Positions 1 through 27,497 of a stretch of DNA of 30,476 bases are shown one piece after another (the first letter of the stretch is position 1; each line of letters starts with the position of its first letter). The notes beneath the pieces are model-generated. The model worked only from the letters and a program-made list of their open reading frames with translations. It did no database searches and was not told the origin of the DNA. The position numbers and the translations under genes were made by a program. Source of the stretch: Steroidobacteraceae bacterium (lineage in GTDB: Bacteria > Pseudomonadota > Gammaproteobacteria > Steroidobacterales > Steroidobacteraceae); assembly GCA_035642735.1 (NCBI GenBank), contig DASQRV010000234.1, forward strand, positions 1-30,476, written 5' to 3'.

Positions 1-46
1 GGCGGTAGCGCGCGTGCACGCGCCAGGCGAGCACCAGCAGGCACAT
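1..46 (-). CDS. NRDE/TANGO2-like (DUF833) protein, 5' fragment running off the window edge
   Basis: Minus-strand ATG at 46 reads MCLLVLAWRVHARYR, resembling the MCL-hydrophobic N-terminus of NRDE-family proteins. It starts 2 nt after the nudC stop. Only 15 codons are visible. Confidence 0.65.
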   Translation of the reverse strand, partial: MCLLVLAWRVHARYR

Positions 47-48
47 GA

Positions 49-945
49 CTAGGCGCTGCCCTTCAGCCAGCTCTCGATCAGCCGCCACGAGATCGACTGT
101 GTCGGCGGGGTGAGCGCCTCACCGGCGTGCACCTGCTCGCGTGTGAACCAGCGGGCGTCCTCGAGCTCACCGCCGACACGGACTTCGCTGTCAGCGGGCG
201 CGCGCGCCTTGAAGCCGAGCATCACGGAAGAGGGGAACGGCCAGGGCTGCGAGGAGTGATAACGCACCTCGGTCACCATCACGCCGGTCTCCTCCGCCAC
301 CTCGCGCAGCACCGCATCCTCGAGGCTCTCGCCCGGCTCGACGAAGCCGGCGATGGTGGAGTAGCGGCGTGGAGGCCAGCTCGCCTGACGCCCGAGGAGT
401 GCGCGCTCGCCGTCACTCACCAGGACGATGATCGCCGGGTCGATGCGCGGAAAGTACTCCTGCGCGCAGTTCGGGTCGGAGCACACGCGGCAGTGGCCGG
501 CCCGCGTTGCGACCGTGGGCGCCCCGCACACGCCGCAGCGGCGATGCCGCGCGCGCGAGATCACGAGGGCGCGCGCGTAGGCGAGCAGCCCCGCTTCATC
601 CGCCGGCAACTGCGCGGTGAGAGGCCGCAGCTCCGCGAGCTCGGTGCCGGGGGGCAGCTCGAGCGAGCGCCCGACCGGCAGCTCCGCGAGGATGCAGCGG
701 GCGCCCTGGAACCAGCCGAGCAGCACTTCGCTGCCCGGCTCCACTGCCGCAACGAGCGGCGAGCCAGCGCCGAGCAGCGCGACGTGCGGCTCCACGCCGC
801 TCTGCAGCAACTCCGCGGTGCCCTGGGAGATGAGGTAACGCGTCGCGGGATCGGCGCGCGCTGCCGCGAGCCACTCCGGGTCATCGCGTTCCTCGGATCG
901 CCGATCGATGTAGGGACCGGCGAAGAAATTCGGGCGCTCGCGCAT
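49..945 (-). CDS. nudC: NAD(H) diphosphatase (NADH pyrophosphatase)
   Basis: Zn-ribbon CGVCG...CRVCSDPNC, FPRIDPAIIV, Nudix box GFVEPGESLEDAVLREVAEETG and the NudC signature SQPWPFPSSVMLGF. Confidence 0.95.
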   Translation of the reverse strand: MRERPNFFAGPYIDRRSEERDDPEWLAAARADPATRYLISQGTAELLQSGVEPHVALLGAGSPLVAAVEPGSEVLLGWFQGARCILAELPVGRSLELPPGTELAELRPLTAQLPADEAGLLAYARALVISRARHRRCGVCGAPTVATRAGHCRVCSDPNCAQEYFPRIDPAIIVLVSDGERALLGRQASWPPRRYSTIAGFVEPGESLEDAVLREVAEETGVMVTEVRYHSSQPWPFPSSVMLGFKARAPADSEVRVGGELEDARWFTREQVHAGEALTPPTQSISWRLIESWLKGSA

Positions 946-978
946 CGAAGCCTGCCGCGCTCCTTTGAGGTGGTGCGG

Positions 979-992
979 CGGATTCTAATCCG
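979..992 (-). promoter_or_regulatory. Palindrome CGGATT-ct-AATCCG overlapping a TAGAAT -10-like box upstream of nudC
   Basis: 6-bp inverted repeat with a 2-nt spacer, seen directly. The minus strand reads TAGAAT inside it. Function is inferred. Confidence 0.35.
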
Positions 993-1015
993 GCGCCGTG
1001 TCATTCCGGCGTGCT

Positions 1016-1636
1016 TCAGCCTGGCTGTGCCGGACCTGAGCAATGCGTACAGCGCGAGGCACGCAGCGGGAAGCGCTCGGTGACCATGAGGCTGCCGCAG
1101 TCGCTGCAGGCGCCGAGGCACAGCTGATCGCCGCGCGCGAGCGCGGTGGCGAGGAACACCGCGTGCTCGAACGAGATCTGCGCCGAGGGCAGCATCAGGC
1201 GGAACGCCTCGAACGCCTGGCACAGCAGCTCCCCGCGCGTCACGCCGGGGAGCGTGGTGCCGGTGATGCGAGCCGCGGCGGTCGCGCCGGCCGCGGCCGG
1301 TGGCACTGCCGCGCCGCCCAGTGGGGCGCTCGCGGCGCCGGGCATCCCCGCGGGTACGACACCGAGCAAGGACAGCATGCTCGCGAGCAACGCGGTCTCC
1401 TGCTGCAGGCGCAGCGAGCGGGTGAAGTAGGCGACCTGGTGCGGTGACTTGCCGCGATGGCGCGGCAGCTGGCGCCGCGCCTGACTCATGTAGGAGCGAT
1501 AGAGCTTGCGGATGCGATCGTCGGACAGCCCGGTCCAGGCCCGGATGGTCTGCGTGCGCGCCTCGTGACGCAGGAAGCGCAGCGCCAGCTCCATGCGCGC
1601 GCGCTCGCGGCTGTAACGATCGTCCGAGATGCGCAT
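1016..1636 (-). CDS. FlhC-like transcriptional regulator subunit with C-terminal Cys4 zinc site (206 aa)
   Basis: Start reassigned to ATG 1636 (MRISDDRY). ELALRFLRHEARTQTIRAWTGLSDDRIRKLYRSY aligns without gaps to the FlhC segment [34 protein letters not shown] (recalled). RGKSP-x4-YF parallels KGMLP-x4-WF. C-terminal CSDC-x15-CTHC parallels the FlhC zinc site. Confidence 0.75.
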   Translation of the reverse strand: MRISDDRYSRERARMELALRFLRHEARTQTIRAWTGLSDDRIRKLYRSYMSQARRQLPRHRGKSPHQVAYFTRSLRLQQETALLASMLSLLGVVPAGMPGAASAPLGGAAVPPAAAGATAAARITGTTLPGVTRGELLCQAFEAFRLMLPSAQISFEHAVFLATALARGDQLCLGACSDCGSLMVTERFPLRASRCTHCSGPAQPG

Positions 1637-1643
1637 GGCTGAA

Positions 1644-1698
1644 TTTTGGTGAAAATTGACCAAAACGCAATCGGGCAAAATTGGGTAAAAATCCCCAA
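1644..1698. promoter_or_regulatory. Two operator-like palindromes (TTGG-N10-CCAA) in the AT-rich divergent promoter region
   Basis: TTTTGGT-gaaaattg-ACCAAAA at 1644-1665 and TTGGG-taaaaatc-CCCAA at 1681-1698. Both have an 8-nt A-rich spacer, and the TTGG cores are 35 bp apart. Confidence 0.55.
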
Positions 1699-1767
1699 AT
1701 CTGCACTGGCGTCCGCGGCGCCGTCCGCTACGATAAGAACGCGCTGTTGGTGTGCAGAGGTGGCGGG

Positions 1768-2493
1768 ATGCTACTGCATTGCGAGAGCGGGAGCGGCGCG
1801 GCGGACGATGGCGCAGCGCTCGCTGCCAGCTGGCTGCGAGCCGGCGCGCTCGATTCGCTGATCGAGCTGAACGAGTTGGGTCTGTCATTGCTCGCGGAGC
1901 AGGCAGCGGTGCGCAGCGGCCCACCGGGTGGGCTGCTGCAGCAGCTCGGCGAGCTGTGGCAGCGGCTCGATGCAGCGGCACGCCAGCGTGCTGCGGCCTG
2001 CCCGTACCTGCTGCTCGATGCCGGCTTTGCCGACCCGTTGCGCTGGCAGGTGCCGCCCGCACCGCAGGTGGGTGATGCGGGCGGCCACCGCTACACGTGT
2101 TACTTCACCGTGCCCGCCACGGCGGAGGTCGCGCGGCTGGTGTTCATTTACGCCTGGCATCTCGCGCGCTCCCAGTCGGCCGCGGCGCGGCTGCTGCTCG
2201 GAATGCCAGCCTCGAGCGCGGCACTGATCGGCCACTACACGCTGCGGCAGATTCAGACTCTCGCCGAGACGCACCTCGAGTGGCTGCGGCCGCGCTGGCC
2301 GGCGCGCGTGCAGGTGTGGCGCGAGCTGCTGCTCGCGGCGGTCTCCGGGGACGTGGCGGCACTCGAGCGCGCGCGGCTCTGGGGGCTGACGCTGCTCGCC
2401 GCCGAGGTCCGGCTTGCGCCCGCCCCGTGGCCGCCGCGCGCTGCCCTTCCCGCGGCTCCCGCCTTGCATTCCACGATCGCGCCGTCGCCCTGA
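1768..2493 (+). CDS. FlhD-like protein, probably two tandem FlhD-like domains (241 aa)
   Basis: ATG 1768 has GAGGT 6 nt upstream. The C-terminal half FIYAWHLARSQSAAARLLLGMPASSAALIGHYTLRQIQTLAETHLEWLRPRW aligns without gaps to FlhD [52 protein letters not shown] (recalled). The N-terminal half (LIELNELGLSLL...RQRAAACPYLLLDAGF) looks like a weaker copy. Confidence 0.68.
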   Translation: MLLHCESGSGAADDGAALAASWLRAGALDSLIELNELGLSLLAEQAAVRSGPPGGLLQQLGELWQRLDAAARQRAAACPYLLLDAGFADPLRWQVPPAPQVGDAGGHRYTCYFTVPATAEVARLVFIYAWHLARSQSAAARLLLGMPASSAALIGHYTLRQIQTLAETHLEWLRPRWPARVQVWRELLLAAVSGDVAALERARLWGLTLLAAEVRLAPAPWPPRAALPAAPALHSTIAPSP

Positions 2494-2558
2494 GGGCGGA
2501 TGTCCGTTTTTGATCGATGGGCGTCTCTCGCCCCTGTGGCGCAGCGGTTTCGGCTGCC

Positions 2559-2580
2559 GGAAGATATTGCCGAATCTTCC
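2559..2580. promoter_or_regulatory. Inverted repeat GGAAGAT-N8-ATCTTCC upstream of the cysteine hydrolase gene
   Basis: Perfect 7-bp arms ending 17 nt before ATG 2598. Confidence 0.4.
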
Positions 2581-2597
2581 CGCAAAGGCCGAGGACC

Positions 2598-3158
2598 ATG
2601 AAGCAGGCTTTGACCGTCGTCGACGTCCAGGAATCCTTCCGCCGGCGCCCCTACTTCCAGGAGCAGGAGCTGCCCGCCTTCCTGCACAACGTGCAGTCCC
2701 TCATCGACCGCTGCGAGTCGCGCGGCATCCCCATCGTGCAGATATTTCACGAGGAGCCGGGCGAGGATGCCGGCAACCCGTTCACGGCCGCCTCCGGCGG
2801 CGTGCGCGCGATGCGCGAGCTCACGCTGCGGCCCGACGCCGTGTTCCGTAAATCGGTGCACTCGGCGATGTTCGCGCGTTCCGCGGAGGGCACGACGCTG
2901 GAAGAGTGGCTGCGCCAGCGCGGCGTCGCCGAGTTGCTGGTGACCGGCATCCGCACCGAGCAATGCTGTGAGACCACCACACGCCATGCTTCCGACCTCG
3001 GCTTCAGCGTGCGCTACGTGACCGACGCGACGCTCACCTTCCCGATGCGGACGCGCGCGGGGCGCGAGGTGTCGGTCGCCGAGATCCGCGAGCGCACCGA
3101 GTTGGTGCTCGATGGGCGCTTCGCCCGGGTGGTCACGACCGCGGCCGCCCTGTCCTGA
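2598..3158 (+). CDS. Cysteine hydrolase / isochorismatase-family protein
   Basis: Start MKQALTVVDVQ after a GAGG RBS. Catalytic triad pattern D (VDVQ), K (RKSVHSAMF), C (GIRTEQCCETT), followed by TRHASDLGF. Confidence 0.9.
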   Translation: MKQALTVVDVQESFRRRPYFQEQELPAFLHNVQSLIDRCESRGIPIVQIFHEEPGEDAGNPFTAASGGVRAMRELTLRPDAVFRKSVHSAMFARSAEGTTLEEWLRQRGVAELLVTGIRTEQCCETTTRHASDLGFSVRYVTDATLTFPMRTRAGREVSVAEIRERTELVLDGRFARVVTTAAALS

Positions 3159-3190
3159 GTCACACCGGCGCCGCGATCGGGGAGGAGCGG

Positions 3191-4189
3191 ATGTCTGCGG
3201 TGCGGACTCGCGCAACCGAGGTCGTGTTCGTGCTGCTGCCCGATGTGGTGCTGCTCGATGTGGCCGGGCCGGCCGACGCATTCCGCAACGCCGCCAGTCG
3301 CATTCCGGGCAGCTACCGGCTGCGCTTCGTCGCGCCGCAGCCGGCCCTCGCGGCCGCCGTCGGGCTGAATCTGAGCGGACTCGAGCCGCTGCCCGAACGC
3401 CTTGCGCCGGGGACGATCCTGGTGCTCACCGGCGTCAGCGGCGCGCTGATCGATCCCCAGGCGCCCGCGATTCGGTGCGTGATCGAGTGGTTGCGCGAGT
3501 CCGCCCGGCCCGCGCTGCTCCTGTGCGTGTGCGCCGGCAGCGTGATCGCGGCCTACGCCGGGCTGCTGGCCGGGCGCGAGTGCACCACGCATCACTCGCA
3601 CATCGAGGAGCTGCGCCGCGTCGAGCCGGGTGCACGCGTGCTGGACAACCGCATCTTCATCGAGGACGGAACGGTCTTCACCAGCGCCGGCGTCACTGCG
3701 GGACTCGACCTTGCCTTGCACGTCATCGGCGAGCAGCACGGTCCGCGCCTTGCCGCGGACATCGCCCGCGACCTGGTGGTGTACCTGCGCCGCGCGGGCA
3801 CCGACCCGGCGCTCTCACCCTGGGTGATGCATCGCAACCACCTGCACCCGGCGGTGCATCGCGTGCAGGACGCCGTGGCACGCAACCCGGCGGCCAGCTG
3901 GAGCGCGGCCGAACTCTCCGCCATCGCCTGCACGAGTGCGCGCAACCTGTCGCGGCTGTTCGCCGAGCACGCCGGCTGCTCGCCGCTCGACTATGTGCAG
4001 CTCATCCGCTTCGCTCTCGCCAGGCAGATGGTGATGGGGAGTCCGCTCGACCTCGAGCACGTCGCAGCCCGCGCGGGCTTTCGCTCGGCGCAGCATCTGC
4101 GGCGGGTGTGGTCGCGCTGGGAAGCGCAGCCGCCGAGCGCCTTGCGGCTGCGCGGCGCGGCGTCGCGCGCGAGCCGGCCGCGGGACTGA
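3191..4189 (+). CDS. GlxA-family transcriptional regulator (DJ-1/PfpI domain + AraC HTH)
   Basis: LLDVAGPADAF, CVCAGS, CTTHH, TSAGVTAGLDLAL, then AraC HTHs (SARNLSRLF; VAARAGFRSAQHLRR). GGAGG RBS upstream. Confidence 0.9.
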   Translation: MSAVRTRATEVVFVLLPDVVLLDVAGPADAFRNAASRIPGSYRLRFVAPQPALAAAVGLNLSGLEPLPERLAPGTILVLTGVSGALIDPQAPAIRCVIEWLRESARPALLLCVCAGSVIAAYAGLLAGRECTTHHSHIEELRRVEPGARVLDNRIFIEDGTVFTSAGVTAGLDLALHVIGEQHGPRLAADIARDLVVYLRRAGTDPALSPWVMHRNHLHPAVHRVQDAVARNPAASWSAAELSAIACTSARNLSRLFAEHAGCSPLDYVQLIRFALARQMVMGSPLDLEHVAARAGFRSAQHLRRVWSRWEAQPPSALRLRGAASRASRPRD

Positions 4190-4920: not shown

Positions 4921-5832
4921 TCAGTAGATTGCGATCTCGCGGTGCCCGGCCGCATCGCGCGCGCCGCGGAACATGCCCTCGGTGCTGAAGTCCATGACGA
5001 TACGCGCGTCGCGGTCGATCGCGATGAGCCCGCCGTCGCCGCCAAGAGCGCGCAGCACCTGGTGTAGCAGCTCGTGTACCGCCTGCTCGAGCGTGAGCCC
5101 GCGGTACTCGACGGCCGCGCACACGTGGTGGGCGGCGACCGCGCGGATGAAATACTCACCGTGGCCGGTGGCGGATACCGCACACACGCCGTTCTTCGCG
5201 TACGTGCCGGCGCCGATGATCGGCGAATCGCCGACCCGGCCCGGGCGCTTGTTGGTCATGCCCCCGGTGGAGGTTGCGGCGGCGAGATCGCCCCGCGAGT
5301 CGCACGCTACAGCGCCCACCGTTCCCTGCGGCGCGGGCGGCACCAGGTCCGAGACGTGCTCGCCGCGCTGTTCGGACTCGAGTTGCTCGAGACGCTCGCT
5401 GGTGCGGAAGTAGTGGTTGGGGACCAGCGTGAAATGCTCTTCCAGCGCGAACTCCTCGGCCCCCGGGCCGACCAGCAGCACGTGGCGCGATTTCTCCATC
5501 ACCCGGCGCGCCAGGTCGATCGGATTCTTCACGTGCCGCACCGATGCCACCGCCCCGGCGCGCATCTGCCGGCCCTCCATGATGGCGGCGTCGAGCTCGA
5601 CGGCGCCATCGCGGCTGAGTGCTGCGCCGTGTCCGGCGTTGAACGAAGGATGATCCTCGAGCAGCCGCACGGCCGTGGCGACCGCATCGAGGCTCGTGCC
5701 GCCGGCCTCGAGCACCGCGTACCCGCCATCGAGCGCCGCTTCCAGCCCCTCCCGGTAACGGCGCTCGCGCTCGGGCGCGAGCGTCGCGCGTGGCACGGCG
5801 CCGGCGCCGCCGTGGATGGCGATTGCGTACAT
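4921..5832 (-). CDS. iaaA: Isoaspartyl peptidase / L-asparaginase (Ntn hydrolase), cytoplasmic
   Basis: Start MYAIAIHGGAG (ATG 5832). FNAGHG, ELDAAIM, catalytic GTVGAV, TSTGG, GRVGDSPIIGAGTYA. Confidence 0.92.
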   Translation of the reverse strand: MYAIAIHGGAGAVPRATLAPERERRYREGLEAALDGGYAVLEAGGTSLDAVATAVRLLEDHPSFNAGHGAALSRDGAVELDAAIMEGRQMRAGAVASVRHVKNPIDLARRVMEKSRHVLLVGPGAEEFALEEHFTLVPNHYFRTSERLEQLESEQRGEHVSDLVPPAPQGTVGAVACDSRGDLAAATSTGGMTNKRPGRVGDSPIIGAGTYAKNGVCAVSATGHGEYFIRAVAAHHVCAAVEYRGLTLEQAVHELLHQVLRALGGDGGLIAIDRDARIVMDFSTEGMFRGARDAAGHREIAIY

Positions 5833-5842
5833 GGCGGGTCCC

Positions 5843-6895
5843 TCAGTGATGCGCGTCGTCGCGGTACATGGCGATCTCGCGCCGTCCACGGGAATCGCGC
5901 GCGCCGCGGAACATGCCGACGCTGTTGAAGTCCATGGCGATGTTGCCAGCGCGGTCGAGGGCGATGATGCCGCCTTCGCCGCCGGTGCGGCGCAGCTTCA
6001 CCTGCACTACCTCGTGCACCGCCTGCGCCAGCGTCAGGTGGCGGAAGAGCACCAGGGCGCACACATCGTAGGCCACCACCTGGCGGATGTAGTACTCGCC
6101 CTCGCCGGTACCGGATACGGCACAGGACTCGTTGCTGGCGTACGTGCCGGCGCCGATGAGCGGGGTGTCCCCGACCCGCCCGCTGTGCTTGTTGGTGAGG
6201 CCCCCGGTGGAGGTGCCCGCCGCGAGGTTGCCGGCGCGGTCGAGCGCCACGGCGCCGACGGTCCCCATGCTGCTCGCCGCGCCCGCCATCACGGCCTGCG
6301 TGGTGGGCGTGCCGGCGCGGTGAGCGCTCTCGGCGCGCCGCGCCTCTTCGAGCTCGCGCTCGCGCGCCTCGGTGCGGAAATAATCGCGCGGCACGAGCAC
6401 CACACCCTGTTCCAGCGCAAAGTCCTCGGCGCCCTCGGCCACCAGCAGCACGTGCGGGCTCTTCTCCATCACGAGGCGTGCCAGCTCTATGGGGTTCTTT
6501 ACGTGCCGCACGCCGGCCACCGCCCCGGCGCGTGGTCCGGTGCCGTCCATGATGGCCGCGTCGAGCTCGGCGTCACCATCGCGGTTGAGCACCGCGCCGC
6601 GCCCGGCGTTGAACTGCGGATCGTCCTCCATGGTGCGAACCGCGGCTGTCACCGCATCGAGGCTCGTGCCACCGCGCTCGAGCACGTCGTAGCCAGCGTC
6701 GAGCGCGGCCGCGAGTCCGGCGCGGTAGGAGGCTTCGCCCGCCGCGGTCATCTTCGCCGGCTCGATGACGCCGGCACCGCCGTGGATGACGATCGCGATC
6801 GGCGGCGGCGCGGCGCCGCGCGCCGCGGCGGACAGCAGCGCTGCCGCCGCGATGAGCAGCACCGAGAAGAATTCGCTCAGCCTTGGGCGCGACAT
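5843..6895 (-). CDS. Isoaspartyl peptidase / L-asparaginase paralog with an N-terminal signal peptide
   Basis: Start at ATG 6895: MSRPRLSEFFSVLLIAAAALLSAAARG followed by IVIHGGAG. GTVGAVA, TSTGG and GRVGDTPLIGAGTYA are retained. Confidence 0.9.
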   Translation of the reverse strand: MSRPRLSEFFSVLLIAAAALLSAAARGAAPPPIAIVIHGGAGVIEPAKMTAAGEASYRAGLAAALDAGYDVLERGGTSLDAVTAAVRTMEDDPQFNAGRGAVLNRDGDAELDAAIMDGTGPRAGAVAGVRHVKNPIELARLVMEKSPHVLLVAEGAEDFALEQGVVLVPRDYFRTEARERELEEARRAESAHRAGTPTTQAVMAGAASSMGTVGAVALDRAGNLAAGTSTGGLTNKHSGRVGDTPLIGAGTYASNESCAVSGTGEGEYYIRQVVAYDVCALVLFRHLTLAQAVHEVVQVKLRRTGGEGGIIALDRAGNIAMDFNSVGMFRGARDSRGRREIAMYRDDAHH

Positions 6896-6968
6896 CGTTT
6901 CCCCGCAGCGGCTATGATCGAAGCGCTCATGGCGCACGCGCGTGCGTGCGGCGCGCCCCTTCATCCGG

Positions 6969-9900
6969 ATGGTAGATCTTAGTGTGAAACCCGCCGACTC
7001 GCAGCGGATACGCAGTGTTCTGGTCGCCAATCGCGGCGAGATCGCCATCCGCGTGATGCGCGCGGCGAGCGAGCTCGGCCTGCGCACGGTCGCGGTGTAC
7101 TCGCACGAGGACCGCTTCTCTCTCCACCGGACCAAGGCGGACGAGTCCTACCTCGTCGGTCCCGACAAGGGGCCCATCGAGGCCTACCTGGACATCGCCG
7201 ACATTCTGCGCATCGCGCAGGAGGCCGGGGTGGAGGCGATCCACCCTGGCTACGGCTTTCTCGCCGAGAATCCCGAGTTCGCGCGCGCCTGCGCGGCGGC
7301 CGGCGTGCGCTTCATCGGGCCCGAGCCCGACACCCTCGCCGTGTTCGGGAACAAGGTGAGCGCCCGCGCGCTCGCGGTATCGGCGGGTGTCGCGGTGATG
7401 CCGGCGAGCGGGCCGTTGCCCGCCAGCCCCGCCGAGTGCGCAGGCGTGGCGCAGGAGATCGGTTACCCGGTGATGCTGAAGGCGAGCTGGGGCGGGGGCG
7501 GGCGCGGCACACGCGTGGTGCGCGATGCGGGTGAGCTCGAGGAGCTTCTGCCGGTGTGCCGCCGCGAAGCCCGGGCGGCTTTCGGCAACGACGAGGTCTA
7601 TCTCGAGAAGCTCGTGGAGCGCGCGCGGCACGTCGAGGTTCAGATCCTCGGCGACCATCACGGCACGCTCGTGCACCTGTTCGAGCGCGATTGCACGGCG
7701 CAGCGCCGTCACCAGAAGGTGGTGGAGCGGGCCCCGGCCGTGTTCCTGACCGCGCCACAGCGCGCGGAGCTCTGCGAAGCCGCGCTCGCCATCGGCCGCG
7801 CCGCGCACTACTCGGGCGCGGGCACGGTCGAGTTCCTGCAGGATGCCGACACCGGCCGCAGCTACTTCATCGAGGTGAACCCGCGCATCCAGGTCGAGCA
7901 CACGGTGACCGAGTGCGTGACCGGCATCGATCTGGTGAAGGCGCAGATCCGCCTCGCGGGCGGCGCGCGCATCGGCACGCCCGAGAGCGGTGTGCCGGCA
8001 CAGGCCGACATCCGCGTGACCGGTCATGCCCTGCAGTGCCGCGTCACCACCGAGGACCCGGAGAACAACTTCGTTCCCGACTACGGCAAGATCGCCGCTT
8101 ACCGCAGCCCCGCGGGCTTCGGCATCCGCCTCGATGCCGGCACGGCCTACACGGGCGCCATCATCACCCGCTCCTACGACTCGCTGCTCGTGAAAGTGAC
8201 CGCCTGGGCACCGACCGCGGAGGAGACCATCGCGCGCATGCATCGCGCGTTGTGGGAGTTCCGCATTCGCGGCGTCGTCACCAACCTGCGCTTTCTCGAC
8301 CAGCTCATCACCCACCCGCGCTTCGCCGCGGGCGACTACACGACCCGTTTCATCGAGGCGACGCCTGAGCTGCTGCAGTGGCCCCGCAAGCGCGATCGCG
8401 CCACGCGCATCCTCAGCTATCTCGGCGCGACCATCGTCAACGGCAACCCCGAGGTTCAGGGCCGGGCGCGCCCGGCACGCCTCGCGGTCCCGCGCCTGCC
8501 TGCCGGCCCGCTGCCGCCGCCCGCACCCGGCAGCAGACAGAAGCTCGCCGAGCTCGGACCCGACGGGTTCGCGCGCTGGATGCTTGCCGAGCAGCGCGTG
8601 CTCATCACCGACACGACCATGCGCGATGCGCACCAGTCGCTGCTCGCGACCCGGCTGCGCACCATCGACATGACCGCCATCGCGCCGTACTACGCGAGTC
8701 TCCTGCCGCAGCTGTTCTCGGTGGAGTGCTGGGGCGGGGCGACCTTCGATGTGGCGATGCGCTTCCTGCGCGAGGATCCGTGGGAGCGGCTGCGCGCATT
8801 GCGCGAGCGTTTGCCGAACCTGCTGCTGCAGATGCTGCTGCGCGGCGCAAACGCGGTCGGCTATACCCACTATCCGGACAACGTGGTGCGCTTCTTCGTC
8901 GCGCGCGCCGCCGAGCGCGGCGTCGACCTGTTCCGCATCTTCGATTCCCTGAACTGGGTCGAGAACATGCGTGTCTCGATCGACGCGGTACGCGAGGCGG
9001 GCAAACTCTGCGAGGCGGCGATCTGCTACACGGGCGATCTCGGCGACCCGCGCGAGCGCAAGTACACCCTCGACTACTACCTCGGGCTCGCCCGCGAGCT
9101 GAAGGCCGCGGGGACCCACGTGCTCGGCATCAAGGACATGGCGGGACTGCTGCGGCCGCGCGCCGCGTACCAGCTGGTGAAGGCGCTCAAGGAGGAGACC
9201 GGGCTGCCGGTGCATTTCCACACTCATGACACCAGCGGCATCGCCGCGGCGAGTGTGCTGGCGGCGGTCGCGGCCGGTGCCGACGCGGTCGATGCGGCCA
9301 TCGATGCCATGAGCGGGCTCACCTCGCAGCCGAACCTCGGCTCGCTGGTCGAGGCGCTGCGTCACGGGCCGCGCGACTCCGGGCTCGACCCCGAGAGGGT
9401 GCGGCAGATCTCCGCCTACTGGGAGCAGGTGCGTCGCCAGTACGTCGCGTTCGAGAGCGACATTCGTGCCGGGGCCTCCGAGGTATATGTGCACGGCATG
9501 CCAGGCGGTCAGTACACCAACCTGCGCGAGCAGGCGCGGGCTCTCGGTATCGACGAGTCACGCTGGCCCGAGGTAGCGCGCGCGTACGCCGAGGTCAACG
9601 AGCTCTTCGGCGACATCATCAAGGTCACGCCGACCTCGAAGGTGGTCGGCGACCTGGCGCTGCTCATGGCGAGTGCCGGCATCAGCCGCGAGCAGGTGTT
9701 GGATCCGGATGCCGAGGTAGCCTTCCCGGAGTCGGTGGTGCAGCTGTTCCGCGGCGAGCTCGGCCAGCCCTACGGCGGCTTCCCGGAAGCGCTGCAGCGC
9801 AAGGTGTTGAAGGGCGCCGCGCCGCTCACGATGCGCGCCGGCGCGGCCCTCGCGCCGGTCGATCTCGCGGCCGAGCGTGCGCGGCTGCGACAACGGCTGC

Positions 9901-24550: not shown

Positions 24551-25303
24551 ATGTTGCCCATGCCGAGGGGAACGCCGACCCAGCTGCCCGCGCCCGCGGC
24601 GCGCGCCCGCCGTGGCTACTTCGAATGCCGCTACGGGCAGCTTCATGTGCACCATGCCATGCCGCGCGGTGGTGGATTCGAGGAGGGAACACCGCTCCTG
24701 TGCCTGCACGACCTTCCGGGCTCCGGGCGGGTTTTCACCCGGCTGCTCCCGCTCGCCGGCGAGGATCGCTCGGTGTACGCGCCGGATCTGCCGGGTTTCG
24801 GCGAATCCGACGGTCCGCGCACGCGCCCGACCATGGCCGACTACGCGGCGGCCCTCGGGGATTTCATCGACAGCATGCGATTTCGAACTCTCGCAGTGCT
24901 GGGGCTGCGCGGCGGCGCCGTCCCCGCGACCGAGCTTGCCCTAACGCGTCCGACCCAGGTGAGCCGTGTGATCCTGGTGTCGGTGCCGCTGCTCACCGAG
25001 GCTGAGCGGCAGGTGGCGCGCAGCCAGACGCCCGCGCCGACCGACGGGGCGTTCAGCTCGGGCGAGGCCGCGCGCTGGGTGCTGGAGGCGGCGGCGCAGT
25101 ATCCGATGCGCGAGCGCCTCGCGCGGCTCACCCAGCGGCTGCTGGTGCTGCGCTCGCACGATGAGCTTTATGACGCAACGGGGCGCGTGCGCGAGGTGCT
25201 GCCCGCCGCGCGTGTAACGGAATTGCAGCAGAACGCCACGGAGGTACTGGTTGGCGCGCCGCAGGGCATCGCCGAAGCGGCGCGCGAGTTCCTGCGTTCC
25301 TGA
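24551..25303 (+). CDS. Alpha/beta-hydrolase-fold protein lacking a recognisable nucleophile
   Basis: RRGYFECRYGQLHV, PLLCLHDLPGSG, YAPDLPGFGESD, YAAALGDFIDSM. The elbow reads VLGLRGGA. Start is ATG 24551 or 24560. Confidence 0.8.
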   Translation: MLPMPRGTPTQLPAPAARARRGYFECRYGQLHVHHAMPRGGGFEEGTPLLCLHDLPGSGRVFTRLLPLAGEDRSVYAPDLPGFGESDGPRTRPTMADYAAALGDFIDSMRFRTLAVLGLRGGAVPATELALTRPTQVSRVILVSVPLLTEAERQVARSQTPAPTDGAFSSGEAARWVLEAAAQYPMRERLARLTQRLLVLRSHDELYDATGRVREVLPAARVTELQQNATEVLVGAPQGIAEAAREFLRS

Positions 25304-25330
25304 AAAAGGGGATTTTCGGGAGATTTTTCA
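25301..25330. promoter_or_regulatory. AT-rich inverted repeat TGAAAAA-N16-TTTTTCA upstream of the FHA gene
   Basis: Seen directly. A TACACT -10-like hexamer lies downstream at about 25375. Confidence 0.3.
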
Positions 25331-25412
25331 CTTAATCACTGCACTGCGCGCGGCCGCCGGCAGCGCACAGCGCTACACTTTTCATCACCCGCATGGAGCA
25401 CTGGGTACCTCA

Positions 25413-27497
25413 ATGAGTTCGCGTCCGAGGCGTCCGCCTGCCCCACCACAGGCGCGTTCCGATCTCGACAGCACGGCCGAGCTGCCGGTACTGGACGTCC
25501 CCGCGCCGGCTGCGAGCGCCACCGCGACGACCGCGAAGGTCGCGGCATCGGGCACAGAGGACGCGCTGGCCACGACCGGCACCTGGGCGCACCCGCTGGC
25601 GGAACAGGCTGCCTCGAGCGCCGCGGCGAGTGTGGAAGAGCAGCGCCGGCAACGACTCGAGCTGGAGTCGCGCACGGCCGCACTGCGGGAGGCGGAGGAG
25701 CGCCTGGCGAGCCACGGCAAGCGGCTGCTGCAGCTCGAGCAGGCACGCGACGAGGCGCTCGCGTCACAGGCGGCCGCCGCGCAGCGCGCCGCCAGCGCCG
25801 AGCAGCGTGCCGCGAGCGCCGAGCAGCGTGCCACCGCCGCCGAGCAACGTACCGCGTCGGTCGAGCAGCACCTTGCCAAGCTCGAGCAGCGCGCCGCCAG
25901 GTTGAGCGCGGAGCTCTCCCAACGGCAGGCCGCGGCGGCGCAGAACGCGGCGCGCCTCGAGGAGTCCGCGCGAGCCCTTGCGGCCGCCGAGCAGCGTGCC
26001 GCCGCCGCAAGCGAGGACCTCGCTCAGGCGCGGGCTGTGGCGAGCGCCTCCGGCGCACGCACCCAGGAGATGCAGCAGCGGCTCGAGCAACAGGAAAGCG
26101 CCGCGCGCGCACAACGCACGCGTGAGCTCGAGCAGCAGCAGACGCTGGCGACGGCGGGGCGTGCGGACGCCGCCGGCGTGATGGTGGATCTGCACAACGA
26201 GCGCGCCCGCGCCATGAGCTACCTCGAGTCGCTGCAGACGCTCGAGCGACGGCGGGAGATCGCGCAGCACCTGGTCACCGAGCTCAATCACGAGGCCGAG
26301 GACCGCGCCGCGGAGCTCGTACGGTTGACCCGCGAGCTCGCGAGCCGCGATGAGCTCGCACATCATCAGGAAGAGGCACTCACGCAACGCGGCGGGCGCA
26401 TCGCACAGCTCGAGCAACAGGTGAGCACGCTCACCAACATGCTCACGCAGCGCGACGCGCAACTGCAGGATCAGGATCACCAGACGCAGGGGCTGCGGTC
26501 GAGCCTCGCGCGACTGCAGGCAGAGATCAACGCCGGTACTGAGCGCGTTCACGCGCTCGAGGCGGATTTCGCCCAACGCGACAGCAGGGAAAGACAACAG
26601 CGTGAGGAGCTGGAACGGTTGCGCAGCGAGATCGTCAGCGCCGACGCCGCGCTCGAGGCGGCGCGCCGCAGCGCCGCGACGGCCGCGGTGCAGGCGAGCT
26701 CGCAACAGTCCGCACTCGCTCAGAAAAGCGAGCGGGCCGGGCAGCTCGAAGCCTGGCTCAGCGCCGAGCGGCAACGGGCTACACAGCTCGAGGGCGAGCT
26801 GGCCACCGTGCGCGGAGAGATGGAGGAGTGGGGCGGCGCCCTGCGCTCGGCGCAGCAGGAGCGCGGCGGTCATCTGGCGAGTATCGCCGTGGCGGAATCG
26901 CGCGTGCGCGAGCTCGAGCAGGCGGCCGTTGCCCGGGAGGAGCGCGTGCGTGCGCTCGAGGCCGAGTGCGCCACGCACGGCGCACGGCTGCGCGGGCTCG
27001 AGAAGGAACCGCCCGCGGCCGAGGAGTTGGTGCAGCGCCTCGAGGCCGACACGCGCAACCGCGCCGCGCGCATCACGGAGCTCGAGGCTACCGGCGATGC
27101 GCGCCACGCCGCCACCGCCATCCATCCGGCGCTGCGTGACCCCGCGCGGCACGCCGGGGAGGAAGCTCCCGGCGACGAGCCAATGCCCGATGGCGCGACG
27201 CGGCTGCTGATCCACAGCGCCGACGGTCGGGAGGTCGTGCACGTGCTCAGCCGCAAGACGAGCATCGGCCGCACGCCCGACAACGATCTGCAGCTCGACG
27301 CCAAGTTCATCAGCCGTCACCACGCCGTCATCCTGGTGGGACCGGCCAGTGCCGTCATCGAGGACTTAAACAGCACCAACGGCGTGCACGTCAACGGCCA
27401 GCGCGTCTTCCGTCAGACGCTGCGCGACGGTGATCAGATCGCGATCGGCCGGATGCAATACCGCTTCGTGGAGCGCAAGGCCGCCGACAAGCGCTGA
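25413..27497 (+). CDS. Long coiled-coil protein with a C-terminal FHA domain (about 694 aa)
   Basis: Likely start MSSRPRR (ATG 25413). About 500 aa of E/Q/R/A/L heptad-rich sequence, then FHA motifs IGRTPDND, ISRHHA, DLNSTNGVHVNG, DGDQIAIG. Confidence 0.88.
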   Translation: MSSRPRRPPAPPQARSDLDSTAELPVLDVPAPAASATATTAKVAASGTEDALATTGTWAHPLAEQAASSAAASVEEQRRQRLELESRTAALREAEERLASHGKRLLQLEQARDEALASQAAAAQRAASAEQRAASAEQRATAAEQRTASVEQHLAKLEQRAARLSAELSQRQAAAAQNAARLEESARALAAAEQRAAAASEDLAQARAVASASGARTQEMQQRLEQQESAARAQRTRELEQQQTLATAGRADAAGVMVDLHNERARAMSYLESLQTLERRREIAQHLVTELNHEAEDRAAELVRLTRELASRDELAHHQEEALTQRGGRIAQLEQQVSTLTNMLTQRDAQLQDQDHQTQGLRSSLARLQAEINAGTERVHALEADFAQRDSRERQQREELERLRSEIVSADAALEAARRSAATAAVQASSQQSALAQKSERAGQLEAWLSAERQRATQLEGELATVRGEMEEWGGALRSAQQERGGHLASIAVAESRVRELEQAAVAREERVRALEAECATHGARLRGLEKEPPAAEELVQRLEADTRNRAARITELEATGDARHAATAIHPALRDPARHAGEEAPGDEPMPDGATRLLIHSADGREVVHVLSRKTSIGRTPDNDLQLDAKFISRHHAVILVGPASAVIEDLNSTNGVHVNGQRVFRQTLRDGDQIAIGRMQYRFVERKAADKR
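25779..25862 (+). repeat. 21-bp tandem repeat x4 encoding (E/A)QR(A/T)(A/T)(S/A)(A/V) heptads
   Basis: gcgcagcgcgccgccagcgcc / gagcagcgtgccgcgagcgcc / gagcagcgtgccaccgccgcc / gagcaacgtaccgcgtcggtc. A further copy lies at 25989-26009. Confidence 0.75.

What the first reader, a model, noticed from the sequence alone, without database searches (positions are those of the whole stretch)
1016..2493. Divergent FlhC-like / FlhD-like gene pair with no flagellar or conjugation context: a candidate uncharacterised master regulator
Seen: the ORF-track proteins 1016..2062(-) and 1681..2493(+) overlap only because their starts are over-extended. With starts at ATG 1636 and ATG 1768 they form a clean back-to-back pair 131 bp apart. 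The minus gene matches FlhC in its N-terminal helix-turn segment (AR-x-Q...T-x-LS..R..KLY), the GxxP...F motif and a C-terminal Cys4 zinc site. The plus gene matches FlhD (about 15 of 60 identities, ungapped, against the sequence as I recall it). Established: FlhDC and its relatives AcaCD/SetCD are heteromeric sigma70-dependent activators of flagellar or conjugative-element genes and are normally encoded as co-transcribed adjacent genes. Here they are divergent, embedded among housekeeping genes (nudC, cysteine hydrolase), and no flagellar, tra or integrase gene is in the 30 kb. The FlhC-like protein also has an Ala/Gly/Pro-rich insert of about 35 aa and lacks the basic tail after the zinc site. 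Inference: a chromosomal FlhDC-family system controlling an unknown regulon.
Basis: partly seen in the sequence, partly recalled or inferred. Interest (0 to 1): 0.85.

Follow-up and report, generated by a model that had tools for sequence, protein, structure and literature searches.

The report
Chromosomal FlhC / double-FlhD regulator pair
Two back-to-back genes of an uncultured soil bacterium encode true but distant relatives of the two subunits of the flagellar master regulator FlhDC; the pair is kept across a whole bacterial order whether or not the cells have flagella, carries its own conserved DNA control palindromes, and its targets are unknown.

Summary
Window 1016-1636(-) and 1768-2493(+) are a divergent gene pair 131 bp apart, and family alignments support both start codons.

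- **FlhC homology.** The minus gene is an FlhC homologue: family profile vs PDB FlhC E 6.6e-9; predicted fold vs FlhC Z 15.3; the four zinc cysteines are invariant.
- **FlhD homology.** The plus gene is FlhD-like twice. Residues 114-217 match whole FlhD (profile E 2.8e-7, Z 6.8). Residues 22-101 match FlhD more weakly (E 4.7e-4; hhalign 73%). It is probably a fused double FlhD.
- **Conservation.** The module nudC <- flhC-like <> flhD-like recurs in about 100 Steroidobacterales loci. It is present in at least ten good genomes in which no FlhA or flagellin was found.
- **Control region.** It holds twin TTGG-N10-CCAA palindromes, essentially the only such sites in each genome, in fixed register with both promoters. 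This fits self-regulation.
- **Relatives.** Paralogous pairs in related genomes lie in lower-GC regions beside type IV secretion genes.

The regulon and the complex remain untested. All public copies seen are annotated 'hypothetical protein'. This scan has already found the same module in at least eight other genomes.

The parts
1016..1636 (-). flhC-like gene, 206 aa (stop codon included)
   Evidence: Start conserved in relatives. Family profile vs PDB FlhC: E 6.6e-9 (8j56_C) and 1.2e-5 (2avu_E). AF2 model pLDDT 84. Foldseek top three hits are FlhC chains, E 6e-6 to 4e-5. VIA-align Z 15.3 and 14.5 over about 150 residues; the next hit scores 7.0.
1040..1108 (-). Cys4 zinc-ribbon region of the FlhC-like protein (C177, C180, C196, C199)
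   Evidence: All four Cys are invariant in 35 relatives. They align to the CxxC...CxxC of E. coli and C. necator FlhC.
1247..1354 (-). Ala/Gly/Pro-rich low-complexity insert (about residues 95-130)
   Evidence: Variable in length and sequence among the close metagenomic homologues, and absent or much shorter in the 27 sequences from related genomes. pLDDT about 53.
1637..1767 (.). divergent control region, 131 bp, AT-rich island in a 68% GC genome
   Evidence: Sequence read. Its elements are conserved across orthologous loci.
1646..1663 (.). palindrome O1 (TTGG-N10-CCAA, A/T spacer), proximal to flhC-like
   Evidence: Two matches in the window against 0.13 expected. O1 lies between the conserved TTGCGT and CAAAAT hexamers of the flhC-like promoter. 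A second palindrome at this position is present in about half of the orthologous loci.
1681..1698 (.). palindrome O2 (TTGG-N10-CCAA, A-tract spacer), distal to flhC-like and proximal to flhD-like
   Evidence: A palindrome of this class is found in about 75 of 97 orthologous intergenic regions, and O2 is the near-universal member, 34-36 bp from O1. A PWM scan of the whole assembly finds only O1 and O2.
1643..1670 (-). candidate sigma70-type promoter of flhC-like: -35 TTGCGT (1665-1670), 16-nt spacer, -10 CAAAAT (1643-1648). The -10 ends 6 nt before the ATG, so the mRNA may be leaderless here.
   Evidence: Read from the sequence. Both hexamers are conserved in orthologues even where O1 has decayed. 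The strict consensus scan did not call it.
1729..1734 (+). candidate -10 hexamer (TACGAT) of the flhD-like promoter, with no recognisable -35
   Evidence: In 50 of 63 distinct loci with O2, a TA(C/G/A)(C/G)AT-type hexamer (mostly TACCAT or TACGAT) lies 29-32 nt downstream of the palindrome; in 46 of these it lies at 30 or 31 nt.
1768..2493 (+). flhD-like gene, 241 aa (stop codon included), two FlhD-like domains
   Evidence: Start conserved. 861 cluster representatives at E<=1e-3. AF2 model pLDDT 90, pTM 0.83.
1831..2070 (+). N-terminal, divergent FlhD-like domain (residues 22-101)
   Evidence: Profile of 64 N-terminal halves vs PDB: top hit FlhD 8j56_A at E 4.7e-4, residues 9-92; the next hit is at 0.26. 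hhalign vs 5 canonical FlhD: 73%, E 3e-5, 76 columns. Against: 0 of 64 single sequences hit PF05247, and the N and C halves show no direct similarity.
2107..2418 (+). C-terminal FlhD domain (residues 114-217)
   Evidence: Profile vs PDB FlhD: E 2.8e-7. VIA-align Z 6.8 and 6.5 over 101 and 96 residues covering whole FlhD; the top five hits are all FlhD and the next scores 2.8. 23 of 77 relatives hit PF05247.
49..945 (-). nudC (NAD+ diphosphatase), 70 nt downstream of flhC-like on the same strand; probable operon partner
   Evidence: NCBIfam NF001299 equivalog, 219.8 bits against a cut-off of 158. Pfam NUDIX plus Zn_ribbon_NUD. It follows flhC-like in most loci with enough flank, including other families of the order. 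No terminator-like site lies between the genes.

Best explanation
The locus encodes a chromosomal, vertically inherited member of the FlhDC class of two-subunit transcription factors. It is specific to the order Steroidobacterales in the genomes sampled.

Shown:
- One gene encodes an FlhC-fold zinc protein.
- The divergent gene encodes a protein whose C-terminal half is an FlhD domain and whose N-terminal half is probably a second, degenerate FlhD domain.
- The two genes are always paired.
- The pair does not depend on flagella.
- The control region carries one or two private palindromes in fixed register with both promoters.

Inferred:
- The double-FlhD chain replaces the FlhD homodimer. Two such chains and two FlhC-like subunits would then form the equivalent of FlhD4C2.
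- This symmetric complex binds the TTGG-N10-CCAA palindromes.
- Binding at O1, between the -35 and -10 of the flhC-like promoter, would repress flhC-like-nudC.
- Binding at O2, whose near edge lies about 7 nt upstream of the -35 position of a promoter that has a conserved -10 but no -35, would activate flhD-like.
- The module would thus be a self-regulating switch whose only identifiable output so far is the co-oriented nudC. Other targets, if any, carry weaker or different sites.
For: Homology:
- FlhC.
- FlhD C-terminal domain.
- FlhD N-terminal domain.

Obligate pairing and synteny (nudC <- flhC-like <> flhD-like).

Independence from flagella: the FlhC-like gene is in 36 of 41 relatives, FlhA in 22 of 41 and flagellin in 18 of 41. 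Genomes G008-G012, G021, G023, G027, G035 and G040 (91-100% complete) have the FlhC-like gene, and no FlhA or flagellin was found in them.

Taxonomic range: full-length two-domain matches occur only in the window's own order among 401 class genomes.

Palindromes:
- 2 in the window against 0.13 expected.
- Conserved in about 75 of 97 loci.
- They are the only PWM hits in the 2.56-Mb assembly.
- In five near-complete relatives, matches with at most 2 mismatches lie only at the pair, plus one extra site in G023.
- Other families of the order carry different palindromes at the same place, twin in two of five sampled, as expected if operator and regulator co-evolve.
- O2 is phased 30-31 nt from a conserved -10 in 46 of 63 loci.

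Other support:
- Soil metatranscriptome libraries hold contigs over both genes; this is weak evidence of expression.
- Precedent: AcaC and AcaD co-purify and only act together (PMC4207636). BisDC activates its own promoter (PMC7423338).
Against: - No interaction, DNA binding or expression was measured. The structure-prediction tool folds one chain at a time, so the complex could not be modelled.
- The N-terminal FlhD assignment rests on moderate scores (E 4.7e-4; 73%). 0 of 64 single sequences hit PF05247, and the N and C halves do not match each other.
- The palindromes could belong to another, unlinked regulator.
- About a fifth of orthologous loci lack a TTGG-N10-CCAA site under my criteria.
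- A strict sigma70 consensus scan called no promoter here.
- The nudC linkage may be inherited gene order rather than co-regulation. The RNA-library contig that approaches the junction reaches only 3 nt into nudC.
Confidence: 0.6

Rival explanations
1. The pair is a host-fixed copy of a conjugative-element regulator. Its real job is cross-talk with integrative conjugative elements: activating, sensing or silencing T4SS/DUF6502 modules elsewhere in the genome, as AcaCD does for genomic islands.
For: - Paralogous flhD-like <> (three DUF6502 genes)-flhC-like modules in G001, G007, G019 and G023 lie in 0.59-0.62 GC DNA beside TrbC pilin and VirB4 genes.
- These paralogues branch inside the Steroidobacterales FlhC-like clade, sister to the Steroidobacteraceae chromosomal group.
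- In G023 the only extra operator-like site lies between two DUF6502 genes.
- All known non-flagellar members of the class (SetCD, AcaCD, BisDC) sit on mobile elements (PMC4207636, PMC7423338).
Against: - The window locus has host-like GC and only housekeeping neighbours.
- The module keeps its position next to nudC across the order.
- The 77%-complete genome of the window shows no DUF6502 gene and no second palindrome.
- Lineage-specific palindromes of the pair were not found upstream of the sampled DUF6502 genes in five other genomes.
- The intergenic region of the element-borne paralogue carries a different palindrome.
Confidence: 0.15
2. The two proteins act as a regulator on distant targets through a different, still unrecognised motif. 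The TTGG-N10-CCAA palindromes would be the operator of another protein that merely controls this pair.
For: - Nothing links the palindromes to these proteins except position.
- FlhDC, AcaCD and SetCD recognise unrelated motifs (PMC4207636), so no motif can be predicted from homology.
- Master regulators are commonly under foreign control.
Against: - A regulator with essentially one operator per genome, whose operator changes along with the pair across families, is most simply the product of the adjacent genes.
- No third conserved gene accompanies the pair other than nudC.
Confidence: 0.2
3. It is an ordinary flagellar master regulator acting on class II flagellar operons elsewhere in the genome.
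For: FlhC/FlhD homology. Some relatives are flagellated.
Against: - At least ten genomes 91-100% complete have the FlhC-like gene, and no FlhA or flagellin was found in them.
- Neither the chromosomal pair nor its paralogues lie near flagellar genes.
- Several flagellated relatives carry FleQ-domain genes next to their flagellin genes.
- The genes are divergent and the D subunit has two domains, unlike flhDC.
Confidence: 0.03

Closest known systems
FlhD4C2 (FlhDC), flagellar master activator of Enterobacterales and Burkholderiales (PDB 2AVU, 8J56, 1G8E)
   Same: - FlhC fold over the whole length, with the Cys4 zinc site.
- FlhD fold in residues 114-217.
- Two gene products are needed (inferred).
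- The candidate target is symmetric and lies upstream of a promoter with a -10 but no -35. That FlhDC uses this promoter type is my own recollection, not tested here.
   Different: - The genes are divergent, whereas flhD and flhC are adjacent on the same strand in E. coli.
- The D subunit is 241 aa with two FlhD-like domains, against 116 aa.
- FlhC lacks the C-terminal basic tail and, in this clade, carries a low-complexity insert.
- There is no association with flagella.
- Sequence identity is about 17-22%.
AcaCD of IncA/IncC plasmids (and its relatives SetCD of SXT/R391 and the SGI1 copy)
   Same: - A non-flagellar FlhDC-class activator.
- The D subunit is about 200 aa, with the FlhD-like segment in its C-terminal half: AcaD residues 121-178 of 202 align to the C-domain here.
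- AcaD therefore also has an N-terminal extension of about 100 residues, which aligns weakly and collinearly to FlhD (E 0.006, not significant).
- AcaC aligns to the FlhC-like profile over 141 columns (88%, E 3.4e-6).
   Different: - acaD and acaC are co-directional and overlapping on a plasmid beside transfer genes.
- Here the genes are divergent, chromosomal and linked to nudC.
- AcaC lies outside the Steroidobacterales clade on a very long branch.
- tblastn of the FlhC-like protein against 72,556 plasmids finds nothing.
BisDC of ICEclc
   Same: A two-subunit activator with an FlhC-like C subunit. It feeds back on its own promoter (PMC7423338). That is the behaviour proposed here from the private palindromes.
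   Different: BisD is a ParB-domain protein with no detectable FlhD domain, and BisC carries DUF2857 (PMC7423338). Both are element-borne and co-transcribed.
Element-associated paralogues in the same order (loci L131-L134)
   Same: Same FlhC-like clade. Same two-domain FlhD-like partner (hhalign 98.6% for the N-domain and 99.8% for the C-domain). Same divergent orientation.
   Different: About 3 kb with three DUF6502 genes separates the two genes. The paralogues lie in lower-GC DNA beside TrbC/VirB4 and not next to nudC. At the one paralogue locus checked (L131) the palindrome is different.

Membership tests
FlhC family (Pfam PF05280) | Match to the family model above its curated cut-off | tested here: inconclusive
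   P0001 alone scores 18.7 bits against a cut-off of 27, over the N-terminal 40 residues only. 34 of 35 relatives match at E<1, best 9.6e-10. An element-borne paralogue reaches 27.2 bits.
FlhC family (Pfam PF05280) | Full-length collinear similarity to solved FlhC, by sequence profile and by fold | tested here: met
   Profile vs 8j56_C E 6.6e-9 and vs 2avu_E E 1.2e-5. hhalign vs E. coli FlhC 93.5% over 153 columns. Foldseek E 6e-6, TM 0.74. VIA Z 15.3 and 14.5.
FlhC family (Pfam PF05280) | C-terminal Cys4 zinc site | tested here: met
   C177, C180, C196 and C199 are invariant in 35 sequences and align to the FlhC cysteines. Metal binding itself was not tested.
FlhD family (Pfam PF05247) | Match to the family model above its curated cut-off | tested here: not met
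   P0002 gives no Pfam match. 23 of 77 relatives match at E<1, best 1e-5.
FlhD family (Pfam PF05247) | Similarity to solved FlhD over the whole domain, by profile and by fold | tested here: met
   C-terminal half: profile E 2.8e-7, 4e-4 and 1.3e-3, the only PDB hits. VIA Z 6.8 with model residues 114-217 against FlhD residues 5-106. N-terminal half: E 4.7e-4 and hhalign 73%, which is weaker.
Flagellar master regulator FlhDC (functional class) | flhD and flhC co-transcribed, D before C | tested here: not met
   Divergent here and in nearly all of about 100 related loci. E. coli was used for comparison.
Flagellar master regulator FlhDC (functional class) | Occurs with, and controls, a flagellar gene set | tested here: not met
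   The FlhC-like gene is present in ten genomes 91-100% complete in which no FlhA or flagellin was found. Control of flagellar genes was not tested.
Conjugative-element activators (AcaCD/SetCD type) | Encoded on a plasmid or ICE next to transfer genes | tested here: not met
   The window has only housekeeping genes and flat GC. The feature is met by the paralogues in L131-L134, not by this locus.
Conjugative-element activators (AcaCD/SetCD type) | D subunit of about 200 aa with the FlhD-like segment at the C-terminal end | tested here: met
   AcaD residues 121-178 of 202 align to residues 131-190 here.
FlhDC class in general | The two subunits form a heteromer that binds DNA and activates sigma70 promoters | not testable with these tools
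   Only single chains could be folded. The inference rests on strict co-occurrence and on the private palindromes.

The most novel reading that the evidence does not exclude
The module is a self-contained, possibly bistable, autoregulatory switch of the kind that drives transfer competence in conjugative elements. It would have been taken over by (or donated from) the host chromosome of a whole order. The FlhD homodimer would be replaced by a covalent double-FlhD chain, giving D'2C2 stoichiometry. The direct output would be nudC, that is NAD(H) turnover or removal of NAD caps from RNA. This would be the first FlhDC-class regulator of core metabolism.
Probability: 0.15. Interest if true: 0.75.

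Novelty: new variant of a known kind. Interest (0 to 1): 0.55.

Why it matters
Until now the FlhDC class has had two known uses: starting flagellum synthesis, and starting conjugative transfer of plasmids and ICEs. This finding adds a third setting. It is a fixed chromosomal module, conserved across an order of abundant soil bacteria and tied to neither function.

It also suggests that the D subunit can be a fused pseudo-dimer. AcaD may share that architecture; I found no mention of this in the two AcaCD/BisDC papers consulted. That would bear on the stoichiometry and assembly of all these activators.

The compact control region has two private palindromes in fixed register with two divergent promoters. 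That makes the circuit directly testable in E. coli with synthetic parts, even though the hosts are uncultured. Every named public copy seen here is annotated 'hypothetical protein', so recognising the family would improve annotation of thousands of metagenomic genes.

Tried and rejected
1. Single-sequence searches (Pfam, NCBIfam, PDB) are too weak for either protein. Diverse family profiles were needed.
2. Direct N-half versus C-half profile comparison to prove an internal duplication found no similarity (0.2%). Single N-domains against Pfam gave 0 of 64 FlhD hits. The duplication claim therefore rests on each half matching FlhD separately.
3. The structural test of the N-domain alone was not possible.
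4. tblastn of the FlhC-like protein, and of a class-level FlhC-like protein, against plasmids found no match.
It worked with the closer alignment.
6. The search for a regulon by motif gave nothing:
   - A PWM over the whole assembly finds only the two local sites.
   - A mismatch-tolerant pattern in five relatives adds one site in G023.
7. The idea that DUF6502 genes share the operator was not borne out. Lineage-specific palindromes were absent from sampled DUF6502 loci of G025, G026, G031, G032, G033 and G039.
8. The downstream isochorismatase-family gene is not a nicotinamidase (38 bits against a cut-off of 174). An 'NAD-salvage operon on both sides' reading was dropped.
9. A flagellar role was rejected on distribution.
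10. The strict promoter and terminator scan found nothing.
11. Metatranscriptome contigs do not bridge the flhC-like/nudC junction by the required 31 nt. Co-transcription is not shown.
12. No paper on the 8J56 structure was found in the library.
Full report
**The locus.** The window is contig C234 of a 2.56-Mb, 77%-complete, 68%-GC metagenome-assembled genome. The closest named homologues come from soil Steroidobacteraceae MAGs. With ATG 1636 on the minus strand and ATG 1768 on the plus strand they give proteins of 206 aa (P0001) and 241 aa (P0002), separated by 131 bp. In alignments of 20 close relatives each, conservation starts at exactly these methionines.

**The FlhC-like protein.**
- Alone, P0001 reaches only 18.7 bits on Pfam FlhC (cut-off 27), over its first 40-50 residues.
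- A profile of 35 sequences spanning the order (35-94% identity) matches the two solved FlhC sequences and nothing else meaningful. The scores are C. necator 8j56_C at E 6.6e-9 and E. coli 2avu_E at E 1.2e-5, each in two collinear blocks: the N-terminal helices and the region around the four cysteines.
- 34 of the 35 sequences hit PF05280 individually.
- hhalign against E. coli FlhC covers 153 columns at 93.5%.
- The AlphaFold2 model (pLDDT 84) finds FlhC chains as its only significant Foldseek hits (E 6e-6 to 4e-5, TM 0.74). VIA-align gives Z 15.3 and 14.5 over about 150 residues, against 7.0 for the next entry.
- C177, C180, C196 and C199 are invariant and align with the FlhC zinc ligands.
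- The Ala/Gly/Pro-rich stretch (about residues 95-130) is a low-complexity insert. It is long in the close metagenomic homologues but absent or much shorter in the 27 sequences from related genomes, and it is modelled at pLDDT about 53.

**The FlhD-like protein.**
- P0002 alone matches nothing.
- An exhaustive search found 861 cluster representatives at E<=1e-3, mostly 200-260 aa.
- A profile of 77 of them hits only FlhD in the PDB: 8j56_A at E 2.8e-7, 1g8e at 4e-4 and 5hxg at 1.3e-3. The match runs from profile positions 115-201 to FlhD residues 16-101. 23 of the 77 hit PF05247.
- The model is confident (pLDDT 90, pTM 0.83). Its residues 114-217 superpose on whole FlhD at Z 6.8 and 6.5. The top five hits are all FlhD and the next scores 2.8.
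- The strong FlhD domain is therefore the C-terminal half.

**The N-terminal half.** Another first-stage note on this window (e1-5317678) suggested a tandem dimer, so I tested the N-terminal half separately.
- For: a profile of 64 N-terminal halves has FlhD 8j56_A as its top PDB hit (E 4.7e-4; residues 22-101 against 9-92; next hit 0.26).
- For: hhalign against five canonical FlhD sequences gives 73% over 76 columns, compared with 85% for the C-terminal half.
- Against: the two halves do not match each other, and no single N-terminal half hits PF05247.
- I conclude that a fused double FlhD is likely (about 75%) but not proven.
- AcaD of an IncC plasmid, fetched from NC_012692, has its FlhD-like segment at residues 121-178 of 202. 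Its N-terminal half aligns collinearly but not significantly to FlhD. The two-domain layout may therefore be shared with the plasmid activators.

**Distribution.**
- The FlhC-like gene is found in 36 of 41 relatives, and in 23 of 24 high-quality ones.
- In every locus with enough sequence the FlhD-like gene lies divergently upstream. This was shown by tblastn down to about 40% identity and by ORF inspection beyond that.
- Among 401 genomes sampled across the class, full-length two-domain matches occur only in the window's own order. Elsewhere the profile picks up only short (about 100-150 aa) FlhD-type genes. Some of these sit in co-directional D-C pairs next to ParA- or AlpA-like genes.
- FlhA is found in only 22 of 41 relatives and flagellin in 18 of 41.
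- Ten genomes that are 91-100% complete (G008-G012, G021, G023, G027, G035, G040) have the FlhC-like gene, and no FlhA or flagellin was found in them.
- In several flagellated relatives a FleQ-domain gene lies beside the flagellin genes.
- The module is therefore not a flagellar regulator.

**Neighbours.**
- nudC (NAD+ diphosphatase equivalog, 219.8 bits against a cut-off of 158) follows flhC-like on the same strand, 70 nt downstream, with no terminator-like site between them.
- This order, nudC <- flhC-like <> flhD-like, holds in the great majority of about 100 loci. It holds even in other families of the order where FlhC-like identity is only 35-40%. The genes beyond flhD-like vary.
- The rest of the window is housekeeping: an isochorismatase-family hydrolase, a DJ-1/AraC regulator, DsbA, two isoaspartyl peptidases, pyruvate carboxylase, P-II, acetolactate synthase, threonine dehydratase and others. 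GC is flat at 0.66-0.73.

**Control region.**
- The 131-bp spacer contains two palindromes of the form TTGG-N10-CCAA with A/T-rich spacers, at 1646-1663 and 1681-1698, 35 bp centre to centre. That is two matches against 0.13 expected in the window.
- Such palindromes are present in about 75 of 97 orthologous intergenic regions. The one nearer flhD-like is almost universal, and the second is present in about half, 34-36 bp away.
- A weight matrix built from them finds only these two sites in the whole assembly.
- In five near-complete relatives, matches with at most two mismatches lie only at the pair. The one exception is a site in G023 between two DUF6502 genes.
- Other families of the order carry different palindromes at the same place, twin in two of the five sampled, for example ATTGC-N10-GCAAT or TTGGTCC-N4-GGACCAA.
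- The proximal palindrome lies between conserved TTGCGT and CAAAAT hexamers 16 nt apart, the likely flhC-like promoter.
- In 46 of 63 distinct loci the distal palindrome ends exactly 30-31 nt before a conserved -10-like hexamer, nearly always TACGAT or TACCAT. No -35 is recognisable.
- This geometry fits repression at the first site and activation at the second by one symmetric, locus-encoded complex. That is inference; nothing was measured.

**Relatives on mobile DNA.**
- Second copies of the FlhC-like gene in G001, G007, G019 and G023 lie in 0.59-0.62 GC DNA with TrbC pilin and VirB4 genes. Three DUF6502 genes separate them from a divergent two-domain FlhD-like gene.
- In a maximum-likelihood tree all Steroidobacterales FlhC-like proteins form one clade (support 95/94), apart from AcaC, E. 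coli FlhC and class-level element types. The element-associated copies are sister to the Steroidobacteraceae chromosomal group (support 90/86).
- The tree is unrooted, so the direction of exchange is open.

**Expression.** Contigs from two soil metatranscriptome libraries cover parts of both genes. DNA carry-over cannot be excluded, and no contig bridges the flhC-like/nudC junction adequately.

**Comparison with what is known.**
- Known members of the class are FlhDC (flagella), SetCD, AcaCD and the SGI1 copy (conjugation), and BisDC (ICEclc, with positive feedback) (PMC4207636, PMC7423338).
- This module shares the folds, and with AcaD it shares the long D subunit.
- It differs in gene orientation, chromosomal fixation, linkage to nudC, independence from flagella and transfer genes, and probably in the fused double FlhD.
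- I therefore class it as a new variant of a known kind. The public entries that carry a name call these proteins 'hypothetical protein'.
- The scan has already reported the same module in at least eight other genomes with concordant follow-ups. My tests reach the same conclusions.

| Claim | Confidence |
|---|---|
| Homology to FlhC and FlhD | about 0.95 |
| The two proteins form a two-subunit regulator | about 0.75 |
| The palindromes are its own operators | about 0.55 |

Targets beyond the locus are unknown.

Noticed in passing
L131:4911-7502 and L133:5186-7766 (relatives G023, G007); also L032:1790-2270 (G023): Two to three DUF6502 (PF20112) genes sit between the element-borne flhD-like and flhC-like paralogues beside T4SS genes. 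In G023 the only operator-like TTGG-N10-CCAA site outside the chromosomal pair lies between two divergent DUF6502 genes. DUF6502 is found in 31 of 41 relatives but not in the window's own incomplete genome.
   Followed up: partly
window 1636-1648: In this genome the candidate -10 of flhC-like ends 6 nt before the ATG and there is no Shine-Dalgarno sequence, so the mRNA may be leaderless. Most orthologues have a 20-35 nt leader with a GGAAG-type ribosome-binding site.
   Followed up: partly
L130:1425-2030 (IncC plasmid pAR060302, AcaD): AcaD is annotated only as 'hypothetical protein'. Besides its C-terminal FlhD-like segment, its N-terminal half aligns collinearly with FlhD residues 8-74 (hhalign E 0.006, not significant). 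AcaD may therefore also be a double FlhD.
   Followed up: partly
L075 and L076 (contig CAWIOP010000001.1, 587-606 kb): One MAG carries two copies of the flhC-like/flhD-like pair about 10 kb apart on the same contig. Only one of them is followed by nudC.
   Followed up: no
window 4921-5889 and 5843-7135: Two adjacent Asparaginase_2 (isoaspartyl peptidase/L-asparaginase) genes lie on the minus strand, both with full-length Pfam matches (E 1e-110). The second has an N-terminal extension of about 110 residues.
   Followed up: no
L117-L122 (class-level genomes G414, G042, G265, G240, G059): Short FlhD-like genes (97-152 aa) are followed co-directionally by 217-227-aa FlhC-like genes. Two of these pairs are flanked by AlpA-like genes and one also by a ParA-like gene. 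They are probably element-borne FlhDC-class pairs of further types. G310 has four copies of a 98-aa FlhD-like gene.
   Followed up: no
window 1-3200: Near-identical DNA occurs in soil metagenome runs of at least 11 studies. Two soil metatranscriptome libraries hold contigs over nudC, flhC-like, flhD-like and the isochorismatase-family gene.
   Followed up: partly
window 25251-27497: A 748-aa protein with a C-terminal FHA domain (Pfam E 7e-19). This matches another first-stage note on this window and was not examined further.
   Followed up: no
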